In this document: positions 1 through 64,000 of the stretch, in pieces
Layout: each line of letters opens with the position of its first letter
Numbering within the stretch: the stretch's first letter is position 1
Source of the DNA: Amoebophrya sp. A120
Taxonomy: Eukaryota > Protista > Dinoflagellata
DNA length: 64,000 bases
Direction: 5' to 3'
Assembly: GCA_905178155.1 (NCBI GenBank)
Contig: CAJINV010000018.1
Location: 378,479 to 442,478, forward strand
Notes under the pieces: generated by a model
Database searches by the model: none
What the model was told of the DNA's origin: nothing
Seen by the model: the letters and a program-made list of their open reading frames with translations, nothing else
Made by a program: the position numbers and the translations under genes

Positions 1-3000
1 GTTCTGCTTGCTGGACTCCGGAAGTTTTTTCCACAAGTCCTCGTTCTCCCTACTCGGCAGGTCTTGCGTCAAATCGAGCCAGTGTTCCTCGTGTTTGCTG
101 GGTTCGTGTTGTGCAAACAACTGGTCGAATTGCGTCTTCGCTGCGATTATGCATTGCAAATATGTCTGGGTCTGGAAGATTGCGAGACTTCTCATGCTAG
201 TTTGACATGACTCAGAACTTTGTATTGCGTGGCCACGAAGACCTCCTCGTGTCTGTCATGCAAAAACGATGTTTCAGTTTCTCATGCGGAATACGCAACA
301 CAGAGCCACAAGAAAATCTGTCATGCTTGGCGGTGCATTACAGTGCGCTTTCTGTTCACTGACATGCATCACAAGTTTCCAGACCCAGACATATTTGCAC
401 TTGATAGCGATAATGGAGATGGAATCAGTCTCCTGCAGCAAATATCCTGTGCAAAAGTATCGTACTCGTATAAATGCAAGTCTTGCATTACAAATCTTTT
501 TCTTAAGGTAAATCAGCATGACTAATTTTATTTCTCATGCTAAGGAAATTTGTAATGCATTTATACGAGTACGATACTTTTGCAATGCATAGCAAATGCT
601 CCGTCAAAATCGTGACGAAATGCCGGCCGCCATTCAGGTCCATCTGCTGGAGCAGCGCGTAGGGGTCCTGTAACGCGGTCTGGAAGAGCAACCGCAAATG
701 GAACTTCGAGCTCCACCAGTGCGGGAAGCGATCGAAGGAAGAGAGCAACGTGTCAAACTGCAGCTGGTGCTTCACGCGCATGCTCCACGCCTGGTACTCA
801 TTCGTCTTCCAACATTATGCACTGCAAAAGCATCGCACTCGTAGTAATCGCAGTCACGCATTACAAATCTAATAATCAAGGGAAATCCGCATTACAAATT
901 ACATTCCTCATGCTGAGAAAATTAGTCATGCGATTCATACTAGTATGATGCTTCTGCAATGCATAAGCGTTTTTCCTCCGCCATGTGAGGTGCGGATTCC
1001 ATGATGTTCAAAACGGCCGACATCTCCTGACTCAAGGGCAGCCCGACATCGCTGCCGCGCAGATCGTCGCTGCTGTAGCGGGCAATTTCCGGCTGGCGCA
1101 ATCGTTTCAAGACAAAGTCCTTTTGGAGGTGCGTTTTGCCCAGATACCCTTTCACCTGAAACTTGCTGACATCCGCGAGAGATTCCCGCCAGACCCCCCG
1201 CCCGGAGGCCGAGATGGCGGACAGCTGCAAGAATTTCAGCAATTTATCCCTTAATCGGTCTTTCACCGCCACCGTTTTCTCTTCCTCCGTTGCCTTATTT
1301 CCCGAATTATTATCCGCAGTAGTTCTCGTGACATGCAAAAGCAAGTGCTTCTCTCGCAAGAATTGCTTTTGCGTCGCCAAACTGTCACCGAACGGAATGC
1401 TCAGCGGCTCCAACTGCAGGTAAAACGGGCCGTTGCTGGTCGGGAGGAGCGGTTTATTTGCGGTGAAACCGGTGCTGGCGCCGAGTAGTGAGCTGCCTTG
1501 CGTGAGTCCCGCGTACTTCGCCACGAGGCTAGGTCTCTTGTCCGGCGAAAAATCGTTCTGTATGCGCTCTGGCAAACCATCCGCATTCGCTGTAAACGAC
1601 TTCGGGCCCGCGAGCGGGTCATTTGCCTCGTTTTCCTTGCCGACGCGTTGCGGCAGCTCGGCATCGAAATCCTGGCCCAGTTCTACGTGCCGTTTCGTGA
1701 AGCCCACAATCTGCCCCTTCTCGTGCGACACGTAGGCGTTGAATTCCACATCCTGTATCGCAAGAAAAACGTGTTACAGTTACACATTGTGATGTTGCAG
1801 GCCAAGCAAGACAGACAAGCTCTGTCATGCCGGATATGCATAGGGGGCTCGTTATTTCATAGGTGTTTTCCCGTAGGATTTCGGCATTACAAGTTTTCTC
1901 ACTCATGCAGAGAAATTTGTGTTGCTGGATTCACTACAAATGTGTAACTGTAACAGTTTTTTCGTTGGATATCCTGGTACGCGATCTTATCCGCCCGTAG
2001 CAGCCTCTGTCGGCGGTCGGGCGTGTCGCTCTTGAACACGGTGGGCAGCCAGAATTTAGCCAAGGTGTTGTCATCTTTGCCCCCGTCATTCAATCCTCGG
2101 TACCCAAACTCGAACCAGTGCAGCCGGAGTTTCCACTTCATTAACACGAAAATGGATTGCGAAAACGACTCGCGGGTGCGCCACTGCGGCTCCTCGACTG
2201 CCTCTTTGACGATCTCCTCCTCCTCTGCAAACGTCTTTGGCGTGATCATCGTGTCGACTTCCTCGTCGGGCGCGGGCCACAGCTTCAGGGCTTTTTCCTT
2301 CCAGTCTCGGTACTCCTGGGAGTCTCTCCCGTAGTGCTATCCTGTGTAAAAACGTCCCCATAGTAAGTTGTCATGCTAATCCGCCATGACAGGAAGATTT
2401 GTAATGCCCATCTCCATGACAGGCATTTCTAATCATGTTTTGGCATTTGGAATGCTGTGAGCAGGAAGACAAAGTGGCTTTCTTATGCGGCGTCTCTTGA
2501 TAACCAGCACGACACTGGAGATTGAAACTTGTCATGCGCAATTCCTAAAACTTGGAGATTTGTGTTGCAAGTTTACCAACTTGACTATGGGGACGTTTTT
2601 GCTCAGGATACGTGCGCCACCGGGTTCTTGTTGTTCACTTGCCAGCGCTCCCACGCTTCCTTCAGCCCGTCAATAGTCCATTTGTGCGATATCAAAAGAA
2701 CAAGTCCCCCCCTCCCATATCGAAATGGAATTTCTGATGCTGGATTTGTGTACACAAATCAGCTTTGTATTGCAGGAAGGCACTGCGACCAGATCCCCAG
2801 GCTCGGCAGGGGCGTATGGGTCTAGTTGTTCAGCATTGCAAACGGCTCCCCTTTAGGCCCACCAGCATGACAAATCGCTTCCATAATGGGACGGAAGCGT
2901 CAGCCCTTGTCTTCTTGCAAGACAAATGTGATTTGTGACCTCAAATCAGCAACACAAATTTTCGGAAGCATACCGCTTCAATATGGGGAGGGGGGATTTT

Positions 3001-6000
3001 TCCTTTTAATATGCGAGGAAAGGGCTCGCTCATTCGGCGCCGCGGCCGCGCCCCGGGCCATGTAACTCAGGGGCTGCCAGTGTCTGAAAGTGTTTTTGAT
3101 ATTTGCCTTGTCAGTCAGATCGTCAAACGAAACCGTGAGCCCCCAAAACCTTGTGATCCATTTGGATATCAATTGCAAAAATGTCTGGGTCTGGAAGAAT
3201 GCGCGACTTGTCATGCAGCTTTTCCATGACCCATGAGGTCTGGAATGCAGGACCTAGCATGACAGAGTCTGTGCGATCTCTCTCATGCCTATCCTGCATG
3301 AGAAACTCCCTCCCGACTTGGTCAAAACTGGACGACTTGTGGTAATCATGCAACACAGATATTTGCATGCTTCAGATTTAGCATGACAAGTTGCATTCTT
3401 CCAGACCCAGACATTTTTACATTTGATATTGGATTCCCAGTTTCCCCCGGCAAACGCCGCCTTTTCGGACTTGAAGGGAGCCTCGTATTTTTGCAGTTTC
3501 CACTCGGACTTGGCTTCCTGTTTGTACCGGAGGTAGAGCGAAGAGACGTTAGTTTTAGGATGATGGGGATCAATACCATCCACCTTCTTCACAATCTTCA
3601 TTGCTTTCGCTTCATCCACTTCGAACCAGCGGAAAAAAGCGTCCTCCATTTTAGTGTCCAAATCCTGCGCTTTCATTCCGCTGCTCGCGTCCCGAATCTG
3701 TTTCAGCTTGCGGAGAAGGTCTCGATCCATCGCATCCTCATTTTGCTCCTCCGCAAAGCCTTCCAGCAGAGCCTCCTTGAAGAGACGACGACGTTCCGCC
3801 AGAGGCTCATACTCACAGTTGTTTTGGTCGTTTAGCTCGATCTTTCCGGTAATCCAGAGCTCCTCGCGTTCTACCGTTTCATCGAGTGCCTCGGCATATG
3901 CATTGCAAATATTTCTGGGTCCTCCGGAAACTTTCGAACTTGTGACGCTAATAAATTTCTTCACAACTACACGCATCAATTTCTCATGCATAGGCAGCAA
4001 AAGTTGCCCACTTCCTGTCATCGAAATAATGGATTTGTCTTCATGCGGATTAGGCATTGCGGAACCTTTTCTAGACCTGTGATGCTGGGGCTTCCACGCC
4101 AGACCTTCCGTGTCATACAAAAACAGCATGACAAAAATCTGCACTCTTCCAGACATATTTGCATCTCATACTGCATGCATCTGCCTCCCATTTGTGTACT
4201 TCAGCTGTTCGTTTTGATTATTGAGCTTCACTTTGAACAAGCCCTTTTCTGGGTCATCATTGTGATACACCTCGTTTTCCATGTAGCACTTTTTCAGTCG
4301 CTGAGTCTTGCAACTGCCGGTGAAGTCAAAGCTTGGCCTGGCGATGTAGACGTGGTCAGGATGTTTCCCAGTGAGCAGGTACGCTAAGAACGCAGCTTTC
4401 CGCCGCCTTATCCTGTGTAAAAACGTCCCCACCCCATAGTCAAGTTGGTAAATCTGCAACACAAATCCCCAAGTTTTGGGAGTTTTGCATGACAAGTTTC
4501 CATCTGTAGCGTCGTGCTGTTTAGCAAGGGCAGCCGCATGAGAAAGCCAGCCTCTCATCCTGTTTACAGCATTACAAAGTCCAAAACACGATTGGAAATG
4601 CCTGTCATGCAGATCCGCATTACAAATGTTCCTGTCATTGCACACTTGCATGACAACCCTGGAGTGGGGACGTTTTTACACAGGATACGCCTCTCGCGGT
4701 CCCCATCCGGCTCTTCGATGGCGTTCAGGTCTTCGGCATGATATCGAAAGGAAAAATCCCTCCTCCCCATATCAAAGTGGCAATCTGTGTTGCGGGATTT
4801 GTGTACACAAATCAGCTTTGTCAATGCAGGCAGATGGCGCAAAGCCTGGAAGGAGCTGGCTAGAGGTGGGCGCCCAGCATGGCAGAGGTCTACCCTGTTG
4901 GCGCAGCAGCATTACAAATCGCCTGCGTAAAGCGACGAACGCTCTGGCTTTGCTCTCTTGCAAGACAGACCTGATTTGTGACCACAAATCAGCAACACAA
5001 ATTTTCAAAAGGATGCCTTTTCGACATGGGGAGGGGGGATTTTTCCTTTTGATACGTGGATGTGTTTGAACATGTACCCCACTTGGTCTTATCCTGCGCA
5101 AAAGTATCGCACTCGTACTGCAGTCATGCATTGCAAATCTTTTCCCTAAGGTAAATCAGCATTACAAATTTTATTTCTCATGCTGAGAAAATTTGTAATG
5201 CATTTATTTATACGTGTACGATACTTTTGCACTGCATAGGTCTGCGTCTTCCACGAATTTCCTCCTGGACTCGTCCCCACTGTGTTGCCTATGCTCTGCA
5301 AAAGTATCGTACAACTCGTAGTAATTGCAGTCATGCATCACAAATTTTTTTCCTGAGGTAGATCCGCATGACAAATTTTTATTTCTCACGCTGAGGAAAT
5401 TTGTAATGCATTTTATACGAGTACGATACTTTTGCACAGCATATTGCCAGTAGAAATACGATTTTTTGTCCGGGATTTATGGATGTGTCAGGATTGAAAT
5501 CGACAGAGTTGAAATAACTTGTAATGCCGAAAATCGATACCAGTTGGGAGCCCAATTTCCAAGCGGCGCATGACAAAATTTTCCGAGCGCCGGAATCCAA
5601 TTTGTCATGCTGTTTGGGCACAGAAGACTGCTTTTGTCATGCTACTTTAGCAGCTCTATTTCAAACCCCAACCACGCTGACAGTTGGCCTCACTTGCCAT
5701 CCCGGCAAGACAGGCACTTCATGCCTTGCATTTTCTGCATGGCAAATCATTTCAACTTTGTCGATTTCAAACCTGACGCTTCCATAAAATTTCGGGCGAC
5801 TCGGACTCGAAAAGAAACTTCGGGTCCTGTTTATGACTTGCTCAAACGTTACAATCTCAAATCGTTTACCATAGAATCTGGAATTTGTCTTGCATGATGA
5901 GCATGACCGAATCGTAGAGCATTCTACTTTCTGCAATACAAATCTCGCCAAGCTCTAGTGCGGTTTGGGGCTCCGAAACTTGTCATGCGCAATCCTGTGG

Positions 6001-9000
6001 GAGTAGGCCAGAAGATGTTGCGCATTTTGCAACGCAAATTCCAGATTCTATTCTAACGTTTGAGATTGTAACGTTTGAGCAAGTCATACCGTTCCTGCTC
6101 GTGCGACCCGTCGATCTTGAAGTACTGCGTTAATTTTTGCGTCAGCAGCGCGGCCTCCGGGTCAAAACTCATTTCCTGGGCGCGCAGCACTTCGCATTGG
6201 TGCTTCACTTCCTCGGTCACGGCCGCGCTCGCAGGCTGGCCGGCCAGTGGCGCTAGGACCTGTTGTCGCGCGTCGTCATGGAGCAAGCCGCAGTCGGTGT
6301 CCGACGGGGGCAGAAAGTGAAGTCCCGCCTTCTTCGCCTGGCGGTCGCCGAGAACCACATCCTGAATGCCTTGAAAGTTGTCGGGATCCTCAGAAATCTT
6401 GCTGGACTTGGCCCCCTGGCGGATCAAGCTGTACCCGATGGCCGCCAGCTTCAAGAGCTCCGCGCGGACTTTCGTCCTCGAGAGCAGGGTATCAACGGTA
6501 AAAATGTCTGGGTCTGGAAGAATTCATGTTTGTCATGCTTGTCTGGCATGACTCTTAAATCTGTCATGCACGTTACCCAAGAGCTCCGCTTTTCTGTGAT
6601 GCAGAAGCGCAGTTTGTCATGCAGAATAGGCAACACCTAGGAGCTCAGAAACTTGTCATGCTCAGCCAGAATTTGTAGCCTCATCATGAGACGCTACCCA
6701 GCATCACAAGTTCCCAGACATCCAGACATTTTTACTTTTGATACAGGGTTTTCTTCTCCGAGTGCGCCAACGCGCGGATGAAAACGGACTGGTACGACAG
6801 CATAAGGCATCAACTGCAAATATGTCTGGGGCTACTGGAAGATTGCAAGGTTTGGCATGCACATTTTGCATGACCAATGATTGTCTGTAATGCATGACCT
6901 AGCATCACACACTTTTAGTAGAACCCTTCCTGATGCCTATTCCGCATGACAAATGCCCTCTCCACCGCGTAGCACAATCAGGGCAGATCCTCTTGCTGGT
7001 CATGAAATACAGATTTTTTTAGAATCCAAAGACAGGATGACAAGTTTGGATCCTTCCAGACCCAGGCATATTTGCAATCCATATGACCCCGTCCAGGAAT
7101 TTGAACGACTCGAGCATGATTCGCCCGAGGTTTCTTATCGCAAGAAAAAAGTGATACACTTACACATTGTGTTGCAGGAGCCGCAAGACAGACAAGCTTT
7201 ATCATGCAGGAAATGCTTGCGAGGATCGTTTCCTACGTGTTTTCCCTTTTAATGTTTGCACTACAAGTTTTCTCTGCCACACAGAGAAAATTTGTGATGC
7301 AGAAACTCAAACAAATGTGTACCTGTAAAAACACTTTTTTCTTGTGATATTTCTCGCGTCTAGCGCATCGTCGTTCTCGTTGTCACTGTAGGACTTGACA
7401 AAAGCCTCTAGGTCCCAAGCGTCCGCTATCCCAGAAAAAAAAGCTGGCAGGGCATATTTGTATTGCAAAAATAAATACACGCAAAAATTTGTCATGGGTG
7501 GCTCCATAGCATGCTGCTTCGGATATGCAACGCAGATTTTTTTGCGTATTTATTTTTGCATTACAAATTATATGCCCTGCCAGCTTTTTTCTGTGTGATA
7601 TCCGCAGCGTCTTGTCTCTCCTTCTTCGTCGGAGTTCCGCTATTGTTCGTTGGGCCGAGCTATCAAATGCAAAAATGTGTGGGTCTGGAAACTTGTGATA
7701 CTAAAATGTGCATGATGAAAACACTTCCGAATGCAGTCCGGCATGACAACGTCCCAAAACGCTTTCTCATAGGCAACCTGTTGGTGATGCAATACAGATT
7801 TTCTTTTCTAGGTATGGAAAGCTAGCATTACAAGTTCCAACCTTCCAGACCCAGACATTTTTACAATCCATACGAGCTGCAGGCTCTTCAGCGCCACAGA
7901 CTCGACCGTGGCTTCGAGTAGCCGGTGCTTTGGAACCGGCAGTTGCCCCACCAAATCCCGCCCGAAGGTTTCCAGCAGGGCCGGGAAATCGGTGCCGCGC
8001 CGCATCTTGGGCCCCTTCCGGACGATGGTCACGATGAGCGGCGGTCGGTTCTCCTCCGGCTGTTCCCACCAGGTTTTCCACTTCTGACAGCACGGCGCGC
8101 AGTTGCAGGTGGTGGATTTCCTGTCCAGCGTGTAGTCGCAGAAATTGTTTCCGCACCCGCGAGGACGGTCTTTCCCCTGCGGATTCCAAGACCCGGGCAT
8201 ATCGGTGCCCGGGGGTCTTTGGAATTCCTGGAAATACTCCCCATCCGTCAGCTGCGCAAATGTCTTTGCCTTAAACTCCGGCTTACGCGGTTGCGGTTTC
8301 GCGCCCGCTTTTCCCTTGTCGAACTTTTGTTCGAAGGGGCAGTTTGCGTCCTTCCCAGATTTCTTCCAGCCGCGGGTCAAAACTAAGCTGATTTCCGATT
8401 CCAAAAACGCGTCCTGGTGCTCCTTTTGGAAGTCAGACGGGATTATCACACAGAAAAAAGCAGGCTGGTCATATTTGTATTGCGAAATTGATAAATACAC
8501 AAAAAGATCTGTATTGCATATCCTAAACCGCGTGCTATGGGGCCGCCCATGACAAGTTTATCTGTGTATTTGTTTTTGCATTACAAATATGCCATCCTAG
8601 CTTTTCTCTCTGGGATAGGGATCTCAAAGCGAGTGGCTCGGTCAATCATGTCCTTCAAATCCTTCACGCTGCTGCCGCCGTCAATCCGGCCAAGCTTCAG
8701 CTCCCGGCCGTGGACCTTCACGCCAGCACGACTGGGAGTGCTCCGTCGGGACTCCAAGTCGTAGATTTGGAGAGCATTCCACATGCTGTTCTCCTGCGAA
8801 CAGCTCCGGTACTCCTCCTCGTCTTGCGGAATCAGGAGCAGCTCACCTGCGGTCTGTAACCTGTACTTCGTCCCCTCGTCAGCCTTATCAAATGCAAATA
8901 TGTCTGGGTCTGGAAGAGCGTAAACTTGTCGTGCAGGTTTTCCATGACCCATGAGGTCTGGAATGCGGGACCTAGCATGACAGAGTCTGTGAGGTCTCTG

Positions 9001-53393: not shown

Positions 53394-56349
53394 CTTGTTC
53401 ACCTCGTACAAATTGTCTAGTTGTCGAGGAATAATATTTTTAGCGTAATTATACTATTTTCTTGGAATTTCAGCTAAAATCAAAGATAGGAACCCTAAAC
53501 GTAAAAACTATGGTAACTATGAAGTGGGATTTTGTTCGTATAATATGATGTTTGTTAGTTTGTTTCTTTGTTTTCTGCGGATTACTGTACGTGGCAAACC
53601 GAGGATATGATAGCGAATATCAAATATAGTAGAGTATTCGTCTAAATTCTTGCTGCTTCAACCGCGAAGAGACAAGAATATCGTGCTAAGTATCAAGCGC
53701 ATTACGTCTCACAGCGCGGCTGTACTCATTCGTATTCTGTATCGACAGGTTGTTGTACCTGTACTTAGTAGAGAAAGTCCTAGTCCAAGTCGCTTTGTAT
53801 TCACAAGTTCTAAGAATAAAGAAAGAGTATTTTCAGTCGTGTCTATGTTGATTTTCTACTCCTGCGCAGTGGCGGTGCGTCAGGGAATGAAACGACAATA
53901 AAGTGAAGTTTTGATGATTTTCTATGTTGGAGCTCCGCTTCGTTCTAATTCCGGATTCTGCTTACACTTGTATGCCAGTATCCGAATAGAATCTAAGTAG
54001 TATAATTTTTTTCCACCGACAGCACAGCTGTTGTACAAGCGAAGTTTATAACTTATGCGTATCGACAGTGAAGAAGTGTCAAACCCAAATAAACAATTTT
54101 GTTTCCACCTTTGTAGCAGCGACAGGTAAAAATAGCGAAAATCTTATACGGTGTCGTCTTCTAGTTTCACTAGAGAGGAGCAGTCACAAATCAACAGGCG
54201 ACTGCGACAAAAATGTTGACAGGCTCGACGTCGAAATAAGTGAGTGTAGCCGAAGTCCTCGTGTGGTCCGGTCTTTTCAGGGTTCACACGACAACGCTGG
54301 TTGACGAGAAACCACCACACACCACAATAAAGAATAGACACCAGCAGAACTAGTAGCAACTACTTCCTGTCTTCCTGTCAACGGGCGGTAATGGGATTTT
54401 CTGAAGGAAGTCGAAATTTGGATTATATTTCAGGCGGTTGATGGTACAAAAGTATTATATAAGTTCTTGTGGGGTGTTCTTCGCTGTTAATTGTGTACAA
54501 CTTGTACTCAAAAAATACGTCGAAACTCGTCTATGCCGCCGAAGATTCGTAGGAGTGGTGAAAAATGTAGCTAGAAAATGTGGCGGTTTTCTTGTAGCTT
54601 TTCTGTCCGGCTACAACAACCTTGCGGCCACCAGTCGATATTGCTAGTATACTTCTACCTAGTACCGGTAAAAGAAAAGTTTATTTTTCATCAAGCTACA
54701 AACGGTACTAGAGGTCGAATAGCTAGAATGAATGTAGTACTGAAATTATGTCGTGCTCTATTTCATCTGCCTCCACTTTTTTTATTTTCGTGGCTTCACC
54801 ACGTACAAGCTCCTCTTAGTTGGAAAAAAAAATAGAAACGTAAAATAATCCCGTCGCGAAAGACAAATCGAAATTCACAGAATCAATGAATTACGACCCG
54901 GTCGCACAACAAAGATGAACCTGTAGTGAGGTAAGCAACGGCATTGTTTGGTATTGAAAATGTGTCATCTCGGATGAAGATCTAGCATCTCTTCACACAT
55001 CAACTTAGACCCCTACTACTTAGATGGGCCCGGTTAAAAAAGATCTCCTTCACACGTGGTCATAAGAGTGCATTCCCACGACCGCCTTCCTTTGTCCTCG
55101 GAAACATCTCCGAACAAAGCAAGCGGCGTGGCGGTGAGACATAGTAGATCGACTTGATGTTACTGAGCCAGTCCTAGTGCGGACGTAGTAAAATAAGGAA
55201 GATCATTATCTTCATCCAGATGGAGTTGGAGATGTGTCGTTGTGTTCTTACTTCTAGATCCAATCATGATCATACATGATCTCATCTTCCGTGAACTCTT
55301 AGTACTATCCAGTCCAACAATAGTAGCACTGCAGGTGAGGATATCACCGTTGACACGTACGATCGTAATGCTGTTGGATCCTCACAAACGAAGATCTTGA
55401 ACTTTATGACTATCTGGCTGCGTCTGCGACTGCAGTACTTACGGAAAAGATCCTCCTCTAGGTGTCTTATTGATCTTCGCTTTGCAAAGTTGAGTGTAGG
55501 ACGAGCACAACTTCTTCGAAACATAAATAAATGGCTTGCACCGAGGGCACGCTGCATCGAGTCTTCTTAGTTAACGTGGAGGATTTTTGCCTTTTTAAAG
55601 CTAAAATGGGCGGCACTGCCGCGATTCTGATGAATAAAAAGAAGCAAAAAGTAACATATTGCGTGCGCTTGTACCAGCCGCAATTTTTCATGTTCTGGAC
55701 GAGACTACCGTCGTGTTTCGCGCAAAAATGCGCATAATTGAGCAAAGCTGATAATTTACAAGCAGAGAAACCGATACTGTTTCGCGAAAAACGAAGAAAA
55801 AATGCACAATTCATCAAAATTACTGAAATACAAACCGAGAGACCGACGGCGTTTCGCGAAAAAAAGTTGACGAACGGGCAAACCGCCGCTACCGAGGTAG
55901 AATTTGACACACGTGCACACAGTAAACCGCAAATAGAGAAGGAACAGTACTTACAACCTTGGTCGCTGTGCCGACGTTTATTTTCACGACGCAAGCAGTG
56001 CTGGACAAGAACAACTTGCCTCTCAGCTTCTATTTTTCTTTTAGTTTTTCATTTCAACAAAGCTCAAACACAACTTGATGTTGTCCCAAAATTTACCTTC
56101 GACAAAATCGTTCAAGAAACATATCAAGTGTTCATTGAAACGCGAAGTCAAAATCCAAACTCTGGTAATACTCATCAAAATAATTTTCACGACGGCCATG
56201 AAATCCTCGGGGCTATCCCTGCAGGCACATGGCTAGTTTGCCGTACATTACATGCATGGCAAATATTTTCTTCAAGTCTGTGAAATTATACAGATTTTCA
56301 TCTTCATTTCTGTTATCCTTATCCCCACCTCATCCTCAAACAAGAAATC
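53394..56349. other. AT-richer intergenic/UTR region without introners
   Basis: no convincing ORF, no TIR elements. Confidence 0.7.
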
Positions 56350-59300
56350 TTACAAAATCATTGGCGTCGGCAGGAAGGGTCCGTGCCGCCACAAGGCCAT
56401 CGGCGACGCCGCGTGAGATGCTAGCTCGTTGTGGTTGGTTATCAAGTGCAAAAATGTCTGGGTCTGAAAACCTGTGATGCTGAATTGAGCATGATTGAAG
56501 CGCTTGCAATGGCAGCCAAGCATGACAAGTTTTGGGACGCCTGCTTATGCCTAGAACGCATCACAAATTGCGTTTTTGCATGACAAAGGAAGTGGAACAA
56601 GCCCCTCTCTTGCTGCTCATGCAACAAAAATTTTCCAGGAATGCAAGACACGCATCACAAGTTCCACTGTTCCAGACCGAGACATATTTGCATTTGATAT
56701 TGGTCACGTGCGTGGAGGTCCCGAAATTTTCCACAGAGTCCTGGTAGAGGAGACTGGTGTCATCGTCGTCGAACCCGGGGAAGGTCAGGTCCGATTGTTG
56801 CCCTCCCGCAGCAGCGCCGTAGTTCTTCTTCGCCACCGCGGCGGAGAGCGAAATGCTCTTCACGACGTTAATGCTGTTTTTGGCCGGCACAGAAGATTTT
56901 TGAACCAGGGTGGATGAAACAGACGACTTCTTGGAAGAAGCAGTATGGACCTTCTTGTGGCGCGAAGATGTAGCTGTGTGTTTCATCTTCATCTCCTTCG
57001 CCCGCAGCTTCTCGTGCATTTTATCAAAGTGAAAAAAGCCCCCACCCCATATCAAAACGAAACTTCTGATGCTGGATTTGCGTACACAAATCAGATTTGT
57101 CTTGCAGTAGGGGACTGCAGGCCGATATCATGCCAGTGCGCAGAGGTTTTGGCCTAGGCGCTTAGCATGGGGAACGCCTATGCTGTAGGACCAACAGCAT
57201 TACAAACCGCCAGCATAATGGGGCGGAGCGGATGCCGTTGCTTTCTTGCAAGACAGACACGATTTGTGNNNNNNNNNNNNNNNNNNNNNNNNNNNNNNNN
57301 NNNNNNNNNNNNNNNNNNNNNNNNNNNNNNNNNNNNNNNNNNNNNNNNNNNNNNNNNNNNNNNNNNNNNNNNNNNNNNNNNNNNNNNNNNNNNNNNNNNN
57401 NNNNNNNNNNNNNNNNNNNNNNNNNNNNNNNNNNNNNNNNNNNNNNNNNNNNNNNNNNNNNNNNNNNNNNNNNNNNNNNNNNNNNNNNNNNNNNNNNNNN
57501 NNNNNNNNNNNNNNNNNNNNNNNNNNNNNNNNNNNNNNNNNNNNNNNNNNNNNNNNNNNNNNNNNNNNNNNNNNNNNNNNNNNNNNNNNNNNNNNNNNNN
57601 NNNNNNNNNNNNNNNNNNNNNNNNNNNNNNNNNNNNNNNNNNNNNNNNNNNNNNNNNNNNNNNNNNNNNNNNNNNNNNNNNNNNNNNNNNNNNNNNNNNN
57701 NNNNNNNNNNNNNNNNNNNNNNNNNNNNNNNNNNNNNNNNNNNNNNNNNNNNNNNNNNNNNNNNNNNNNNNNNNNNNNNNNNNNNNNNNNNNNNNNNNNN
57801 NNNNNNNNNNNNNNNNNNNNNNNNNNNNNNNNNNNNNNNNNNNNNNNNNNNNNNNNNNNNNNNNNNNNNNNNNNNNNNNNNNNNNNNNNNNNNNNNNNNN
57901 NNNNNNNNNNNNNNNNNNNNNNNNNNNNNNNNNNNNNNNNNNNNNNNNNNNNNNNNNNNCCCTCTTTTTGACCTCTCTGCACCCTCTGTGCCACTTAGGC
58001 GGCGCCTAAGGGTGGGCGCTTACTGCGGGCCTTATTCGCGCACCCTCTCGCGGACCCTCTCGAACGGGGTCCCGCGCCACCTCTCCACCTCTGTCGACCT
58101 CTTTTCTACCTCTGTCGACCTCTTTTTTACCTCTCGGCCACCTCTCTGGGACCCTCTGTCTACCTCTTTTTTCGCATGAATATAATGTATAGTAATCGCA
58201 ATACAAATTTCCGTAGCATTAGAAATGGAATCTGTAATGCGGATTTGCCTCAAGAAAAAGATTTGTAATGCATGACTGCGAAGATTACTACGTACGAGTA
58301 CGATACTTTTGCACAGGATACTCTTCGTCCTTTGCCAAAATGTCGTAGATGCTCGCCGCCAGTTTCTCCTCTTCCTTTTTCGACACGAACTGGTTCTCGC
58401 TTTGCAAAAACTCCTTTGACTTCACGGATTGGAGAAGATTGTCGGCGTATTTTTCTTGCTCCTTCTCCATGAAGGCATGTTGTTGTCCTTGTTCTTGATG
58501 ACCAGGTGCAGCAGCCGCGTTTGTGAAGGAGATGCGATTTTTCTTCTTGGCCAAAAACCCCTGCTGATCAACATGAGTGTGCGAAACCACGGACTTCACA
58601 ACATCCCGGACCGTCATCGAATCAGAAGCGGCACTCTTCTGCTGGGCAGAAGAAGTACTGGTGTGCGCGGCGGTCGGTTGCGTCTTGGAAGTAGTAGCTC
58701 CCGTAGTAGAAGACTTCTGCGCAGGGTCGTTCTTCATCTCGCGCACCTCCGTCACATAGTTGACGACCGGCGGGAGACCAGCAGTGTTCATTCTCGACGC
58801 ACCAGAGGCGTTCGCCAGGAAGTTGCGGCCTTTGGAAGAAGCACCAGAGTGGTCGCTCCCGCCGACCTTCTTCTCCACGACTTTCTTCTTTGCAAAATCG
58901 GTTTCATGGTTCGCTTTGGCAAAGCCGACCTGCAGACCGTCGCGATCGAAGACGGTGAAAAAGGCGCGAATGAAGACGTCGCCCAAGATCCAGGCCGGCT
59001 TTCCCATCTGCGTCTTGGGCTCTTCGTACCTTATGTATAGTGTGGTTTAGGGTTTAGGCTTCGGAGAGTTCTGAAGTAGATGACACCGTGATAGTATGTG
59101 GATAGGATTTCTTCAAGATACGAATATAGAAGATTTGCTTGAAAACAGGCTTGAAATAATGACATCATGACAAAAAACTACACTCCTCATAGTACTACCC
59201 GAATTCCATGTCCGCGGGCATAATCCCGAGGGCGCAGTTGGTCCGCTTCCCTTTGTGATCGAACTTATCCAAGAAAAAAACTGCGTTAGTGTAACTATCT

Positions 59301-62300
59301 TCGGCTGGTGACAGCATCACAAATTTGCTCTGTCTACATGATGTCATGCGTGGTTTGTAAGGGAAAACACACATGAGCAGAGGACTGCGCGGCTGTCTGG
59401 CATGACAGGTGTAACTTTGTTGCATGTTCTGCATCACAGATTTACACTTACACAGTTTTTTTCTTGCATAAAACTCTTCCATCATGTATTCTTTCGGGGT
59501 CAGGTCCAGCTCGTAGTTCTCTCCCTTGTCATCCCGGAAAATGTATCCTGTGCAAAAGTATCGTACTCGTGATCTTGCAATCACGCATTACAAATCTTTT
59601 TGCTAAGGTAAATCAGCATTACAAATCTTATTTTTCATGCTGAGGAAATTTGTAATGCATTTATACGAGCACGATACTTTTGCAATTCATAAAATGAAGG
59701 TCAGAGGTTTCAAGTTGTTGAATCCGTTACAGTCGTCTTCCACGCCGAGCACACTGATCATGTCCTTCACATTCGATTTATGAAATGCAAATATGTCTGG
59801 GTCTGGAAGAATGCAAGTCTGTCATGCTTGGCCGACAAGACAGAAAAGTCTGTCATGCTTGGCGCGCTATGGTGCCACTTGTTTGTCATGCACAAGGGCC
59901 ATTTGTCATGCGGCTCACGCTAGACATAGCCGCTCAGAAACTTGTCATGCGCGGCCCCCGAATACAGGCTGCGCATCATTCGGACATTAGCATCACAACT
60001 TTCCAGACCCAGACATATTTGCATGTGATACGATTCCGGAGCGGTGATCAAGCTGGTACCCGTGTCAATCAGCGCGGTGCACCCCTTCTTCGGGCAGAAC
60101 CCTATCAAATGCAAATATGTCTTGGTCCTCTGGAAGATCCCGAGATTTGTCATGCAGTTTATCCAAGCTCCACCAAGCGGCCTGGAATGCAGGTTGTAGC
60201 ATCACAGGATCTGCAGCCCCTTGGTGATCGATGCCTGCTCTGCATGAGAAATGCCCTCTAGCATGGGCACCTCTTGCAAGTCACGCAACACAAATTTTTG
60301 TACGATCCGCAACATGCATCACAAGTTCCCATCCTTCGAGACCCACACATATTTGCAATGCATAAACCCGAAGGGACTGTCATGTGCCTTCACGTCGACG
60401 AGATCGATGGTCCAACGAGATTTCATGGTCACCGGCGACCACTGCATCTTAGTGGCGCCCTTGTCACCGCCGAGGATCTTGTCGGGATCGACCTGATAAT
60501 AAACGGGAAGTGGAGATTGTGATGGCTTGGTGCGTTATTTCCGATGCCGAACCATCAAGATGACGAAGACCAACATGCAAGGGCACAGCAACAATCAATG
60601 ATGCATGTCTGGCTCAGTGATAAATGTAAGAACATGCACACTTCTGCATCTTCCCCCGCGATCGAAGGATCAGGATGGGAATGGGTGTTGATGTACAACC
60701 TGTGAGAAATAAAACAAAACCTGTTTATTTACCTTCCCAATCGTCATGTAGCCGGGCTTGGTCGGGTCCCCGCTGAAATAAAAGCCGTACTGGTTGTGCT
60801 CGATCAACTTTTTATCCAGCATGTTGTCCAGCACCGGGCGGTGGAAATTCCGTTTGTTCTGGTAGTATCCTGTACAAAAGCATCGTATTCGTATTTTGCA
60901 GTCATGCATTACAAATCTTTTTGTCAAGTCAAATCCGCATTACAAATTTATCTGTTTCTCAGGCTGAGAAAATTTGTAATGCATTTATACGAGTACGATA
61001 CTTATTTGCAATGCATAGGTAGTGATTCATATCCAATCCCAGCCCGAGAATCCCGTCCATTATCCCATGCAAAAACGTCCCCACCTCCCCATAGTTGTAA
61101 TGCAAGTCTGCATGCAGCTGCAAATATTTCTCATGCGGAGCCCCATAAGAAGCATTCTCGAGCCGTGTTTCGGAATTTGTGATGCTCCAAGCAGCATAAC
61201 AGGCTAGATCTGTGATGCTGTTGAACTAGCCAAATAGGACTACACTACACGGCCAAGTCTGTCATGCGCAACAAACAAAGCTGGGAGATTTGTCTAGCAG
61301 ATTTCCCAGCCTGAGTATGGGGCGGGGACATTTTTACTCAGGATACCCATCGGAGATTCCTTGAAGGGAAAATCCGTTTCCCGCAGCGTCACGCCCACGC
61401 CCTGCCAGGGCACCTCGATGTCGCCCAGCTTCACGTGGTCGGTTCCCCACTGCTATCAAGTGTAAAAATGTCTGGGTCTGGAAGAGTGCAACTTGTCATG
61501 CTAAGTAAATCTGAAGCATGCAAAAATCTGCGTTGCAGGATTACCAAAAGTCGTCCAGTTTTGACCAAGTCGGGAGGCAGTTTCTCATGCAGGATAGGCA
61601 TGAGAAGGATCGCACAGAATCTGTCATGCTAGGTCCTGCATTCCAGACCTCATGGGTCATGGAAAAGCTGCATGACAAATCGCGCATTCTTCCAGACCCA
61701 GACATTTTTACATTTGATAACTGCGCGCGGACGGCGCCCGTGCCGTAGAACAGATCGTGGCGGGTGCCGGTCGTGCGAAAAGTCTTCGATTATCAACTGC
61801 AAAAGTGTCTGGGTCTGGAAGATTGCCAGGCTTGTCATGCATATTTTGAATGACCCATGATGTCTGTGATGCATGCCCTAGCATCACAGATTTCTAGCGG
61901 ACTTTGTGATGGTGCCTCTACCGCATGAGAAATGCCCTCTCCACGTAGCACAAACTGGAGTCCTTTTGCTGGTCATGCAATACAGACTTTTTTAGAATCC
62001 AGAGACAGCATTACCAAATATAGCCGCTGGGGCGGGGGTAGTGAGGTCGTGGGCGTTTTTTTGCCGACCGCAGCCTTGGCCGCGGCTTTGCTTTTTATGG
62101 GTTCGTCATACCTCCGTGAGTAACGTTATGCCGCACGGTATGATGGCCACTTGGGAAACGTTGCAAATTTTGGCACATTTCCAAAATTACTTTCCGAAAG
62201 CCAGCCCCGATGCTATGGGGCCGATCCGGGTGCCACGGGGGCCGCCCAGAAAGCGAAGAAAAACCGGGCCCATAGCATGCGGATTGGCTTTGCGCGTCTG

Positions 62301-63396
62301 GCGCGCTTTTTATTTTTCGCGTTTTTATTTTTCACGCCGGCGCTTTTTGCAAAGCTTCCCAGGCTCTAAAACCGGCGAAAAGGCGGCCGCTTTCGCGGCC
62401 GCCCAAAATGCTCCGAAATCGCGGCCGTGCCAAGCTGTTTCGCTGTTCTGATTTTGGGCGCGTTTTTTGCGCGCCCTTTTTTGGGCGCCCCAAATCGCCA
62501 GAAACTAAGGCGGCGGGCGCCTCAGAAGGGCGCCCCTTTTGCCGGCTCCCCTGCGTCGTTTTATCAAGTGCGAATCGATAGTTTTCGACCGGGCTTGTTT
62601 GCCGCAAACGCCCCGGCCGCTCGATAAGTGAAAACTTTTTATGCTCAAAAACACTTCCGGCCGCTTGAAGACTGCCGGTCGTTTTTCACGGGAGGTGTCA
62701 AAAAAACTCCCTGGTTAGAACCGTTCGGTGACCTCACTACATACAAGTTTAGAATCTTCCAGACCCAGACACTTTTACATTTGATATCGATTTCCAGGGC
62801 GCAAAAGCCTTGTGGTTCTTGCAGCACGCATCCGGACAGAGCTTGCCGGGAACCTTTAAATCATTTTTTTTTCGCTATGTATACATCAACATGCCCACCA
62901 AGAGTAGTCGAGTACAATTGGTTGTTCCTCCTTCATCCTGATACGTTATTCTCAGGTAAAGACATTGTTCTCAAACTCAAAGATGTAAACGGTACTGTAC
63001 GACACGCATGAGAAATCTATTTTTCTGTACCCACAAATCGTTGCTGCCCGTGTCGAAGACGACAGTGAAGTTTTGCGGCGGAGTCCCAATCTCGATGTCG
63101 CCGTAGAACATCATGTTGTCTTGGTTCATCATCTCAATCTCCTGCGGCGTTGCGCGTCCCTTCTGCGCCCGCTGCACAACGGAAACGGTTGCCTGCGAGC
63201 GCTCGCGGTTCGTCGGCCGCAACTCAATTTGCGTGGACAACGCATGCGCTCCTTGGAAGAGGGTCGTTTGATGTTGCGCTGTCAAGAGATAAACAGCGCC
63301 AAAAATAGCTCGAGTGGAAAGTTTACTCAACATTTTGTTTATGATTTTTGCAAAATCTTTATGTTTAAAAATCAGGTTCTTCAGGGTAGAAGTCAA
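56350..63396 (-). CDS. Pepsin-family (A1) aspartic protease, cathepsin D/plasmepsin-like, with long low-complexity C-terminal extension; spliced
   Basis: Reconstructed motifs [34 protein letters not shown] (flap), [37 protein letters not shown]. Exons approx 63396-63031, 62853-62787, 61790-61720, 61453-61346, 61060-61018, 60865-60733, 60492-60365, 60102-60031, 59778-59692, 59543-59471, 59265-59199, 59029-58321. Exons 57021-56700 and 56439-56350 (stop TAA) lie across the gap and are less certain. Confidence 0.92.
56440..56699. mobile_element. Introner family A
   Basis: flanks ttggt/ttggt. Confidence 0.88.
57022..57268. mobile_element. Introner family E, cut by assembly gap
   Basis: left TIR only. 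Confidence 0.82.
57269..57959. other. Assembly gap
   Basis: run of N. Confidence 1.
57960..58195 (-). mobile_element. Second copy (5' part) of the nested Helitron-like element
   Basis: reverse complement of 13677-13912. Confidence 0.8.
58196..58320. mobile_element. Introner family B, reverse orientation, host of the nested element
   Basis: right TIR TACGAGTACGATACTTTTGCACAGGATA. Confidence 0.85.
59030..59198 (-). other. GT-AG intron enclosing a decayed introner (59032-59191)
   Basis: GG|GTAGTA...CATAAG|G joins MEFG|YEEP; residual TIR TATGnnnAGTGTrGTTT at both ends. Confidence 0.75.
59266..59470. mobile_element. Introner family K
   Basis: flanks gaact/aaact; joins MEEF|DHKG. Confidence 0.9.
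59544..59691. mobile_element. Introner family B
   Basis: flanks aaatg/aaatg; joins LTFI|FRDD. Confidence 0.92.
59779..60030. mobile_element. Introner family A
   Basis: flanks cgatt/cgatt; joins APES|NVKD. Confidence 0.92.
60103..60364. mobile_element. Introner family A
   Basis: flanks aaccc/aaccc; joins PFG|FCPK. Confidence 0.92.
60493..60732 (-). other. Canonical GT-AG intron
   Basis: AAG|GTAAAT...TATCAG|GTC joins MTIGK|VDPD. Confidence 0.9.
60866..61017. mobile_element. Introner family B
   Basis: flanks ggtag/ggtag; joins NHY|QNK. Confidence 0.92.
61061..61345. mobile_element. Introner family D
   Basis: flanks tccat/cccat; joins ESPM|DGILGLG. Confidence 0.92.
61454..61719. mobile_element. 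Introner family A, reverse orientation
   Basis: flanks actgc/actgc; joins VRAQ|WGTD. Confidence 0.92.
61791..62786. mobile_element. Introner family A with nested element
   Basis: flanks tcgat/tcgat; joins PWKS|KTF. Confidence 0.9.
62014..62741 (-). mobile_element. Nested GC-rich element with asymmetric subterminal inverted repeats (Helentron/Helitron2-like)
   Basis: GTAGTGAGGTC at 62038-62048 and GACCTCACTAC at 62730-62740; TA on both flanks. Confidence 0.6.
62854..63030 (-). other. Canonical GT-AG intron
   Basis: TGG|GTACAG...TTAAAG|GTT joins NDLW|VPGK. Confidence 0.9.
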
Positions 63397-63564
63397 TTTC
63401 AGTAATCAAGTGAGGAAACAGAAGCAGCAATAGCTGGTATCAAACAGAAACTTTCGGAAAAGGAAAGAAGAGAAAAGAATCGCCTCGTCGAGCAGGAAGA
63501 GAAAACTCAGAAAGCAATCCCCTTCAAGCAAGACGAAGGCGTCGTCTTCTGTAGGTGGTAAAAT

Positions 63565-63843
63565 TATCCTGAGTAAAAACGTACCCACACCAGAGTTGTA
63601 ATGCAGATTTGCAAAGACAGGAAGACTTGTAACGCGCATCCCCATGAGAGCCATTCCCAATTGTGTTTTGGAATTTGTGATGCTGTGAACAGGATGAGCA
63701 GATGAATCTGTGATGCGGCTGCACTTGCTAACCTGCACCACACTGCATAGTGAAACTTGTCATGCGTGACTCACAAAACTCCTAGGTTTGTGTTGCAAAA
63801 TCCTCATCCTGACTCTGGTGTGGGTACGTTTTTACTCAGGATA
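63565..63843. mobile_element. Introner family D upstream of the protease ATG
   Basis: perfect TIR TATCCTGAGTAAAAACGTACCCACACCAGAGT; flanks aaaat/aaaat. Confidence 0.92.
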
Positions 63844-64000
63844 AAAATTGTATGATAGTCACAAAGTAGAGCACGAGCACAAGTTCGTTCGTAGACAAAA
63901 CAATCAAAATTAGGAGAATAAGCTCAAGGATAATTCTGAAGAACAGCTCGAGTTGTTGTAAGTAGATAGTTCTCCTCCTCGTCTGTGCAAGGAGTTGAAA

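What the first reader, a model, noticed from the sequence alone, without database searches (positions are those of the whole stretch)
148..63843. About 114 MITE-like elements from about 14 families act as non-canonical introns removed with one 5-bp target duplication
Seen: almost every interruption of the minus-strand genes is TAT-[TIR]...[TIR]-ATA flanked by a 5-bp direct repeat of variable sequence. Removing the element plus one repeat restores the frame and rebuilds conserved pepsin motifs. For repeats such as ttgga (3167-3428), no register inside the repeat gives GT-AG, GC-AG or AT-AC. Established: inverted-repeat introner elements with direct repeats and non-canonical borders are described in Amoebophrya spp., and their splicing mechanism is unresolved. 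Inference: this is that system or a close relative, with precise excision defined by the RNA stem or by bound factors. No transposase is encoded in the window.
Basis: partly seen in the sequence, partly recalled or inferred. Interest (0 to 1): 0.88.

Follow-up and report, generated by a model that had tools for sequence, protein, structure and literature searches.

The report
Amoebophrya A120 transposon introns, already published
This stretch matches the genome of the algal parasite Amoebophrya A120, where over a hundred small transposon copies interrupt genes and must each be removed exactly, with one 5-base flanking repeat and mostly without normal intron signals; these introns were described in 2021, and they are likely cut from the RNA by a still unidentified machinery that measures from their paired ends.

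Summary
Observation confirmed; the system is published for this genome. I find 108 complete and 4 half TAT…ATA inverted-repeat elements in 12 end-types. The flanking repeat is exactly 5 bp (77 of 108 perfect). Removing element plus 5 nt opens a 5,542-codon frame over 82 elements. The pepsin gene's exons give the deposited Amoebophrya sp. A120 protein CAD7970772.1, whose model drops element+5 at 8 of 8 sites; orthologs confirm the length. Only 3 of 108 offer GT-AG at any register. The ends fit the A120 introner motif of Farhat 2021. No RNA reads covered these exons, so splicing here rests on that paper and on proteins. Not seen in the papers I read: one internal motif (RAAYYTGTVWTGC) shared by all end-types; the outermost base is fixed at the transcript's 5' end but not its 3' end (1 vs 13 changes in 325); exons pile up at 37-55 nt. 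I found no strand bias for RNA pairing, so the stem model is unproven. No transposase found. The scan noted similar introns before in other dinoflagellate genomes (unchecked).

The parts
1..45386 (-). Giant protein gene of unknown function, runs off the window at 1; two open frames (45386-38232, 1,225 codons; 38151-1, 5,542 codons incl. 247 X), likely one gene across the N gap; 95 complete elements and 2 halves, no ordinary intron needed
   Evidence: unnamed homologs P0006 and P0007 align in order across runs of up to 9 elements; no Pfam hit
148..62786 (.). End-type A (TAT..GTCTGGGTCTGG), 43 copies, mostly 247-280 bp: 148-406, 3167-3428, 3897-4170, 6490-6743, 6808-7083, 7661-7872, 8886-9151, 9858-10109, 14624-14888, 15618-15879, 15925-16175, 16871-17122, 18246-18510, 19394-19661, 20129-20390, 21152-21413, 21575-21821, 23222-23501, 25389-25744, 26083-26352, 27239-27503, 28681-28944, 29369-29615, 30252-30654, 30771-31030, 32578-32843, 33860-34115, 35509-35770, 36075-36336, 38555-38824, 39129-39394, 39461-39722, 40070-40321, 41478-41753, 42392-42720, 44270-44534, 49051-49291, 52966-53227, 56440-56699, 59779-60030, 60103-60364, 61454-61719, 61791-62786; half copy from 37203
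   Evidence: clusters 0, 10, 11, 16, 17, 19 grouped by shared end
443..61017 (.). End-type B (TAT..AAAAGTATCGTACTCG), 17 copies, about 150 bp: 443-591, 816-965, 5090-5238, 5290-5443, 11214-11365, 13559-14554, 16198-16357, 19706-19857, 22151-22303, 23639-23791, 25196-25345, 31067-31219, 33369-33517, 36720-36869, 51223-51421, 59544-59691, 60866-61017; half copy ending 58320
   Evidence: clusters 1, 13, 18
2338..63843 (.). End-type C (TATCCT..AAAAACGTCCCCAC), 13 copies, about 280 bp: 2338-2610, 4409-4687, 12151-12462, 15159-15429, 17166-17447, 18956-19237, 22363-22645, 24857-25139, 26474-26726, 29660-29940, 33031-33315, 61061-61345, 63565-63843; half copy ending 38236
   Evidence: cluster 2
2690..44895 (.). 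End-type D (TAT..AAAATCCCCCCTCCCC), 9 copies, about 322 bp: 2690-3011, 4742-5054, 10662-10983, 17880-18201, 26776-27097, 28998-29318, 31899-32225, 34625-34946, 44566-44895; half copy from 57022
   Evidence: cluster 3
1756..59470 (.). Eight smaller end-types, 26 copies: E 7427-7600, 8444-8617, 10449-10619, 28195-28385, 33632-33802, 41802-41972; F 1756-1971, 7136-7349, 14933-15142, 35231-35441, 39783-39992; G 5832-6088, 20475-20734, 36888-37139, 41145-41396; H 5478-5786, 31517-31825, 40376-40681; I 9197-9405, 24092-24310, 59266-59470; J 10165-10399, 27781-28016; K 22965-23175; L 11418-11898, 40864-41089
   Evidence: clusters 4-9, 12, 14, 15
3162..3433 (-). Example unit: 5-bp repeat + element 3167-3428 + 5-bp repeat; predicted long terminal stem with TAT paired to ATA
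   Evidence: fold z = -12.6 for 3150-3445
48960..53453 (-). Low-complexity protein gene, 1,259 codons after removal of 3 elements (49051, 51223, 52966); likely continues below 47685
47685..48990 (.). 1.3-kb insert with 54-bp inverted ends (85% alike) and a 24-bp direct repeat; does not follow the 5-bp rule; not counted among the 112
58321..63333 (-). Pepsin-family aspartic protease gene; 8 elements in the coding region (61791, 61454, 61061, 60866, 60103, 59779, 59544, 59266) and 3 ordinary GT-AG introns (about 63027-62851, 60729-60490, 59197-59029, within a few bases)
   Evidence: exons give residues 1-607 of P0001 = CAD7970772.1
56353..57021 (-). Open frame with one element (56440-56699); likely the 3' end of the pepsin gene beyond the N gap
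   Evidence: inference from position

Best explanation
These are the published introner elements of Amoebophrya sp. A120: short gene-less copies with TAT…ATA inverted ends and an exact 5-bp flanking repeat, likely spread as non-autonomous DNA transposons and likely removed from pre-mRNA by a dedicated cut-and-join machinery that measures from the two paired ends instead of reading GT-AG. SHOWN: geometry, frame restoration, both orientations, no base preference in the repeat, no canonical ends at most sites, tolerance of large internal insertions. PUBLISHED: removal in RNA-seq, genome-wide (Farhat 2021). INFERRED: (1) one transposase, not yet found, inserts all end-types with a 5-bp stagger and binds the shared internal motif; (2) after transcription the ends pair; (3) a factor reads the first U of the element and cuts within the repeats so that one copy is left; (4) because any cut within the repeat gives the same mRNA, new insertions are nearly harmless and accumulate at about five per kb of exon in the giant gene.
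For: Identity: P0001 named A120, 100% over the query exon, residues 1-607 map to the pepsin exons; TAT-N7-AAA at 179 of 216 ends matches the published motif. Exactness: 82 elements in one stop-free frame only with +5; deposited model drops element+5 at 8 of 8 pepsin sites, and a transcriptome-derived ortholog has no gap within 2 residues of any of the 8. No canonical signal: GT-AG 3, GC-AG 5, AT-AC 7, GA-AG 7 of 108, against 4, 2, 5, 2 on the other strand; repeat bases resemble exon background; branch-like motif 150 sense vs 161 antisense of 325; both orientations in all five types tested. Signal at the ends: terminal triplets change at 25 of 1,950 sites vs 93 of 1,625 repeat mismatches; the outermost base changes 1 time at the transcript's 5' end and 13 times at the 3' end of 325 elements, p=0.002 uncorrected, same direction in both data sets (0 vs 4; 1 vs 9); the 996-bp copy 61791-62786 is still dropped exactly. 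Ends are predicted to pair in 101 of 105 elements. DNA transposon signs: shared motif 423 times vs 12 in shuffles, facing inward, 404 or so of 408 elements with at least 2 sites (98.5%), first site mostly at 33-34 or 41-44 bp from the end. Same anatomy in a second assembly: 246 of 309 with a perfect 5-bp repeat.
Against: No junction read was seen: RNA runs X6, X8 and X9 did not cover the exons of 1-20000. No strand bias for RNA pairing: G-U 245 vs A-C 228 in the inverted ends, equal folding energy on both strands, and further in A-C exceeds G-U (546 vs 459), so the stem may be only a by-product of DNA symmetry. Positions 4-7 of the ends pair poorly. No transposase in 59 window pieces or in 79 of 194 long ORFs of the second assembly, and Farhat found none in A120. 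Nearly all spliceosome proteins are present in A120, so a retooled spliceosome is as open as a new enzyme. The first-base asymmetry is one of several positions examined. The internal motif is no better kept between close pairs (3.8% differences) than the repeats are (3.7%), so its role after insertion is not shown.
Confidence: 0.55

Rival explanations
1. Same elements, but removed by a retooled major spliceosome without U1: the paired ends or a bound protein stand in for donor and acceptor recognition, and U2/U5/U6 do the chemistry.
For: 83 of 89 spliceosome proteins and all snRNAs but U1 were found in A120. An Amoebophrya strain with U1 has mostly GT-AG introns. Fritillaria's MITE-derived introns are described as spliceosomal. 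The 5'-only constraint on the first base resembles a donor rule. Ordinary introns share a gene with the elements.
Against: No branch-point or pyrimidine bias towards the 3' end, both orientations used; 87 of 108 have no canonical-like pair at any register; exons as short as 11-17 nt lie between elements. Fritillaria keeps fixed end dinucleotides, these do not.
Confidence: 0.32
2. The elements are cut out of DNA, like ciliate internal eliminated sequences, in a transcribed copy of the genome; the mRNA only looks spliced.
For: Full strand symmetry, a likely DNA-binding motif, no RNA-pairing bias, and precise loss of one target repeat all suit a DNA reaction.
Against: The first-base constraint follows the direction of transcription. 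In run X1, 5 exon-element junctions are bridged by contigs with 31 or more letters on both sides and no difference, and none of the 15 joints shown (of 3,239) is an exact excision; X1's kind is not on record and it may be the assembly's source. No germline-soma split is known in Amoebophrya (my knowledge).
Confidence: 0.07
3. The ordinary spliceosome uses GT-AG sites near the element ends, and the protein absorbs small indels.
For: A frame-keeping GT-AG pair exists within 12 nt for 53 of 108 elements; mismatched repeats offer GT/GC-AG a little more often (10 of 74) than perfect ones (15 of 251).
Against: 55 of 108 have none within 12 nt; pepsin orthologs leave no room for indels at 8 of 8 junctions; published RNA-seq junctions are mostly non-canonical.
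Confidence: 0.03

Closest known systems
Introner elements among the non-canonical introns of Amoebophrya sp. A120 (Farhat et al. 2021, PMC7789003; 58 families in Gozashti et al. 2025, PMC12130899)
   Same: Same organism by a named protein record; ends start TAT + 7 nt + AAA; inverted and direct repeats; about 240-260 nt; tens per gene; mixed with ordinary introns; no transposase inside.
   Different: The paper gives repeats of 3-5 nt of varying position and says no family-specific inverted repeats were detected; here the repeat is always 5 bp directly outside TAT…ATA and 12 end-types are clear. The shared internal motif, the first-base asymmetry and the 37-55 nt exon peak are not in the sections I read; supplementary figures S19-S25 were visible only as legends and S19 shows a 5-bp repeat.
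Nonconventional introns of Euglena (PMC12501133; review PMC11282704)
   Same: MITE-like, paired ends, short direct repeats that make the junction slide, no GT-AG, machinery unknown.
   Different: Euglena needs a CAG/CTG pair at fixed distances and its introns leave as circles; here the ends are TAT/ATA, families are still recognisable as copies, and the excised form is untested.
Spliceosomal introners of Micromonas, Aureococcus, Symbiodinium and Polarella (PMC9860276; bioRxiv 2020.10.14.339549)
   Same: MITE-like DNA transposons that become introns on insertion, some in both orientations; linker-biased insertion is reported for some.
   Different: They carry or co-opt GT/GC/GA and AG, so their target repeats are constrained; here the repeat has no base preference.
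IS3EU/GingerRoot DNA transposons (PMC10045372)
   Same: TA…TA termini; integrase-related transposase, in line with the integrase-like ORF of A120 family 38.
   Different: Their target duplication is usually 6 bp, here 5; no transposase was found to test kinship.

Membership tests
Amoebophrya A120 introner elements (Farhat 2021) | Occurs in the A120 genome | tested here: met
   Pepsin exons give residues 1-607 of CAD7970772.1, named A120
Amoebophrya A120 introner elements (Farhat 2021) | Inverted ends starting TAT, 7 looser bases, then at least 3 A | tested here: met
   179 of 216 ends; five small end-types read TCA or CAC at that place
Amoebophrya A120 introner elements (Farhat 2021) | Direct repeat of 3-5 nt at the exon/intron border | tested here: met
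   Exactly 5 bp; 77 of 108 perfect, 24 with one mismatch
Amoebophrya A120 introner elements (Farhat 2021) | Repeated in families | tested here: met
   20 clusters at 70% identity; element depth in run X1 far above exon depth
Amoebophrya A120 introner elements (Farhat 2021) | Non-canonical borders | tested here: met
   GT-AG possible at 3 of 108
Amoebophrya A120 introner elements (Farhat 2021) | Absent from mRNA in RNA-seq | tested here: inconclusive
   RNA runs laid did not cover the exons; indirect support from the deposited model and orthologs
MITE (non-autonomous TIR DNA transposon) | Short, non-coding, inverted ends, fixed-length target duplication, many copies | tested here: met
MITE (non-autonomous TIR DNA transposon) | Autonomous partner with the same ends and a transposase | tested here: inconclusive
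   None in the window or in the 166 fetched loci; long copies owe their length to nested inserts; the whole genome was not available
IS3EU/GingerRoot | TA…TA termini | tested here: met
IS3EU/GingerRoot | 6-bp target duplication | tested here: not met
   0 of 108 and 0 of 309 at k=6
Euglenid nonconventional introns | CAG after +3 pairing with CTG near the 3' end | tested here: not met
   Positions 4-6 are C/G, A/C/G, A with no conserved CAG
Euglenid nonconventional introns | Excised as circles, not lariats | not testable with these tools
   No RNA coverage
Spliceosomal introners (Micromonas/Aureococcus type) | Carried or co-opted GT/GC/GA and AG | tested here: not met
   87 of 108 have no such pair at any register

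The most novel reading that the evidence does not exclude
All A120 introners are one undescribed transposon superfamily (TAT…ATA, strict 5-bp target duplication, shared RAAYYTGTVWTGC sites set in roughly helical steps from the ends) that comes with its own orientation-blind, spliceosome-independent RNA excision system. The system reads the first U, cuts at a loose register inside the repeat, and so lets the transposon insert anywhere in coding sequence at no cost.
Probability: 0.3. Interest if true: 0.85.

Novelty: already known. Interest (0 to 1): 0.4.

Why it matters
The phenomenon is in print for this genome, so the finding is a rediscovery. The open question behind it is real: how a eukaryote removes tens of thousands of introns that have no fixed border sequence. 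The strict geometry found here turns the 'variable splice sites' of the literature into one rule (element + 5), which would fix gene models and defines test substrates. Junctions whose two repeats differ show where the cut falls. The first-base asymmetry names a base to mutate. The shared motif is a bait for the missing transposase or splicing factor.

Tried and rejected
RNA evidence: no listed holder of 1-10000 is on record as RNA; X6, X8 and X9 matched only element copies from other loci, which says nothing on expression. No reads were obtained for 44001-64000, so the pepsin junctions lack read support. Deposited A120 proteins for the giant gene and the gene at 48960-53453 were not found; length limits make this weak. 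Idea that both repeat copies are under coding constraint (sliding cut): in the window 22 of 39 mismatches are synonymous and 4 of 39 sit at codon position 2 (p about 0.01-0.08 against one free copy), but the second assembly gives 23 of 46 and 11 of 46, not significant on its own under strict constraint; pooled p 0.007-0.07; left as a lead. RNA-stem selection by G-U bias or strand energy: not found. U-G wobble as the cause of the first-base asymmetry: rejected, positions 2 and 3 go the other way. Branch point or pyrimidine tract: none. Viral contigs: no match to the end-type A pattern. Rfam: 0 matches in the window. Transposase: none. IS3EU membership rejected on repeat length. Paper searches listed no study that resolves the A120 splicing mechanism or reports the internal motif; subscription papers are not covered, and Huff 2016 was not held.


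Full report
1. Observation. A search for TAT…ATA pairs with a 5-bp flanking repeat and complementary ends gave 98 candidates, against 0-1 in 20 Markov controls. I dropped 3 cross-pairings. An end library added 13 decayed copies and 4 halves at the N gaps: 108 complete, 112 in all, 45% of the called bases. They form 20 clusters at 70% identity, or 12 end-types by my grouping. The repeat is exactly 5 bp: 77 of 108 perfect, 24 with one mismatch, none at 4 or 6-9 bp.

2. Removal is exact. Taking out element plus 5 nt yields a stop-free minus-strand frame of 5,542 codons (247 are X at a gap) over 82 elements, plus frames of 1,225 and 1,259 codons over 13 and 3 elements. Other lengths in the same frame class (+2, +8) give shorter frames. 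Two unnamed homologs align in order across runs of up to 9 elements, so the giant frame is a real gene. In the pepsin gene the deposited protein drops element+5 at 8 of 8 sites, including a 996-bp copy, and has three ordinary GT-AG introns. A transcriptome-derived ortholog from another Amoebophrya has no gap within 2 residues of any of the 8 junctions; one gap of 1 residue lies 3 residues after the 59266 junction, and the A25 ortholog has small insertions near two others. This fixes the length removed but is not A120 mRNA.

3. Identity. The last pepsin exon matches P0001 at 100%, named Amoebophrya sp. A120, CAD7970772.1. Farhat et al. 2021 (PMC7789003; I read the abstract, sections 10, 11, 12 and 16, passages, and supplement legends only) report 66,565 RNA-supported introns in A120, over 60% non-canonical, and 29,850 introner elements whose inverted ends start with TAT, seven looser bases and at least three A. 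That fits 179 of 216 ends here. Gozashti et al. 2025 (PMC12130899; passages, and 22 of 58 A120 rows of one supplement; two supplement files not searched) list these as TIR DNA introners with target duplications called 2-5 bp or not called. The finding is therefore a rediscovery.

4. No ordinary splice signal. At any register inside the repeat GT-AG fits 3 of 108, GC-AG 5, AT-AC 7, GA-AG 7; the other strand gives 4, 2, 5, 2; 87 have none. Repeat bases resemble exon background. Both orientations occur in all five end-types tested, though many copies could not be oriented, and there is no branch-point or pyrimidine bias.

5. Second data set. The 166 loci held 309 distinct elements, 246 with a perfect 5-bp repeat, 271 similar to window copies. 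This may be the same or a close species, so it enlarges the sample but is not an independent origin. A codon model called strand and frame correctly for 103 of 103 window elements it accepted and framed 169 of 309, later 217 of 373.

6. What marks the elements. (a) All end-types share an internal motif, about RAAYYTGTVWTGC: 423 exact TGT-NN-TGC cores against 12 in shuffles and 36 in the rest of the window. 98.5% of 408 elements carry two or more sites; they face inward, first mostly at 33-34 or 41-44 bp from the end, and repeat at 31-33 bp. I read this as DNA-binding sites for one transposase; subterminal transposase sites in a MITE are known (PMC1636448, search listing only). End-type B does not show the near-end site. 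(b) Terminal triplets change at 1.3% of sites against 5.7% mismatch between repeats. The outermost base changes once at the transcript's 5' end and 13 times at its 3' end in 325 elements (p=0.002 uncorrected), which points to recognition in the direction of transcription. (c) Ends are predicted to pair in 101 of 105 elements, z from -2.5 to -14.8 in 22 sampled, but neither G-U use nor folding energy favours the transcribed strand. (d) Nested inserts of 0.1-1 kb are tolerated, so the signal lies at the ends. (e) Exons between neighbouring elements pile up at 37-55 nt: 29 of 93 against 7 expected, and 28 of 212 in the second set, where the peak is broader. This recalls linker-biased insertion reported for algal introners (PMC9860276, passages); the range was chosen after seeing the data. 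(f) The first repeat base falls at codon position 3 in 118 of 267 cases (p=0.0007), unexplained.

7. Mechanism. Shown: points 1, 2, 4 and the counts in 6. Published: RNA-level removal, U1 not detected, no transposase found in A120. Inferred: spread by one transposase with a 5-bp stagger, and removal from pre-mRNA by a machinery that measures from the paired ends. I put 0.55 on a dedicated cut-and-join system that works like the one for Euglena's nonconventional introns (PMC12501133 and PMC11282704, passages), 0.32 on a retooled spliceosome, 0.07 on DNA excision and 0.03 on nearby GT-AG. Whether the cut slides within the repeat is open: a synonymous excess among repeat mismatches in the window did not replicate clearly.

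8. Limits. No junction reads; no whole genome; no transposase. Figures S19-S25 of Farhat 2021 may already show parts of what I call unreported. Other papers seen as passages: PMC11453091, PMC10045372, PMC12005148, bioRxiv 2020.10.14.339549. Earlier notes of this scan describe similar introns in other dinoflagellate genomes (unchecked); none covers this genome or this element.

9. Verdict. Real, correctly read by the first stage, already known. Interest 0.4, for the open mechanism and the testable details.

Noticed in passing
window 1-45386 (-): Giant gene of at least about 6,400 codons with 95 complete introners, no Pfam family; unnamed homologs P0006 and P0007 exist.
   Followed up: partly
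window 47685-48990: 1.3-kb GC-rich insert with 54-bp inverted ends and a 24-bp direct repeat in a low-complexity exon; removal with the repeat keeps the frame; no Pfam hit in its ORFs. IS481EU is reported to make about 25-bp duplications; kinship untested.
   Followed up: partly
window 13691-14520 and 57960-58181; L023:779-1557: An 830-bp insert sits inside two type-B elements at the same spot (100% identical over 222 bp) and, 77% alike, inside a type-H element of the second assembly: a mobile element that nests in introners.
   Followed up: partly
window 25426-25520 and 30297-30386: Same 90-bp insert with a TTGG repeat tail in two type-A elements, 99% identical; no Rfam match.
   Followed up: partly
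L009:9473-10727, L032:632-1465, L036:6314-6770, L066:571-1051, L067:3862-4492: Retroelement-like inserts with short repeat tails and, in some, target duplications lie inside introners, often at the shared motif.
   Followed up: no
window 11418-11898: Type-L element with an internal insert flanked by a repeat of about 23 bp and holding telomere-like TAAACCC runs.
   Followed up: no
window 57022-58320: The deposited pepsin model joins two different half elements across the N gap and ends in a short frame; a hidden exon in the gap is likely and the true C-terminus may be the frame at 57021-56353.
   Followed up: partly
window 45669-46982 (-): Element-free open frame of 438 codons between the giant gene and the next gene; no Pfam hit.
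   Followed up: partly
element ends, positions 4-7: Four bases inside TAT differ between close copies twice as often as the interior (17.7% vs 9.5%), which suggests exchange between left and right ends.
   Followed up: no
window 7427-7600 (run X9): 48 RNA reads of a 2026 run match part of a type-E element and then diverge: a related copy is transcribed in that sample.
   Followed up: no
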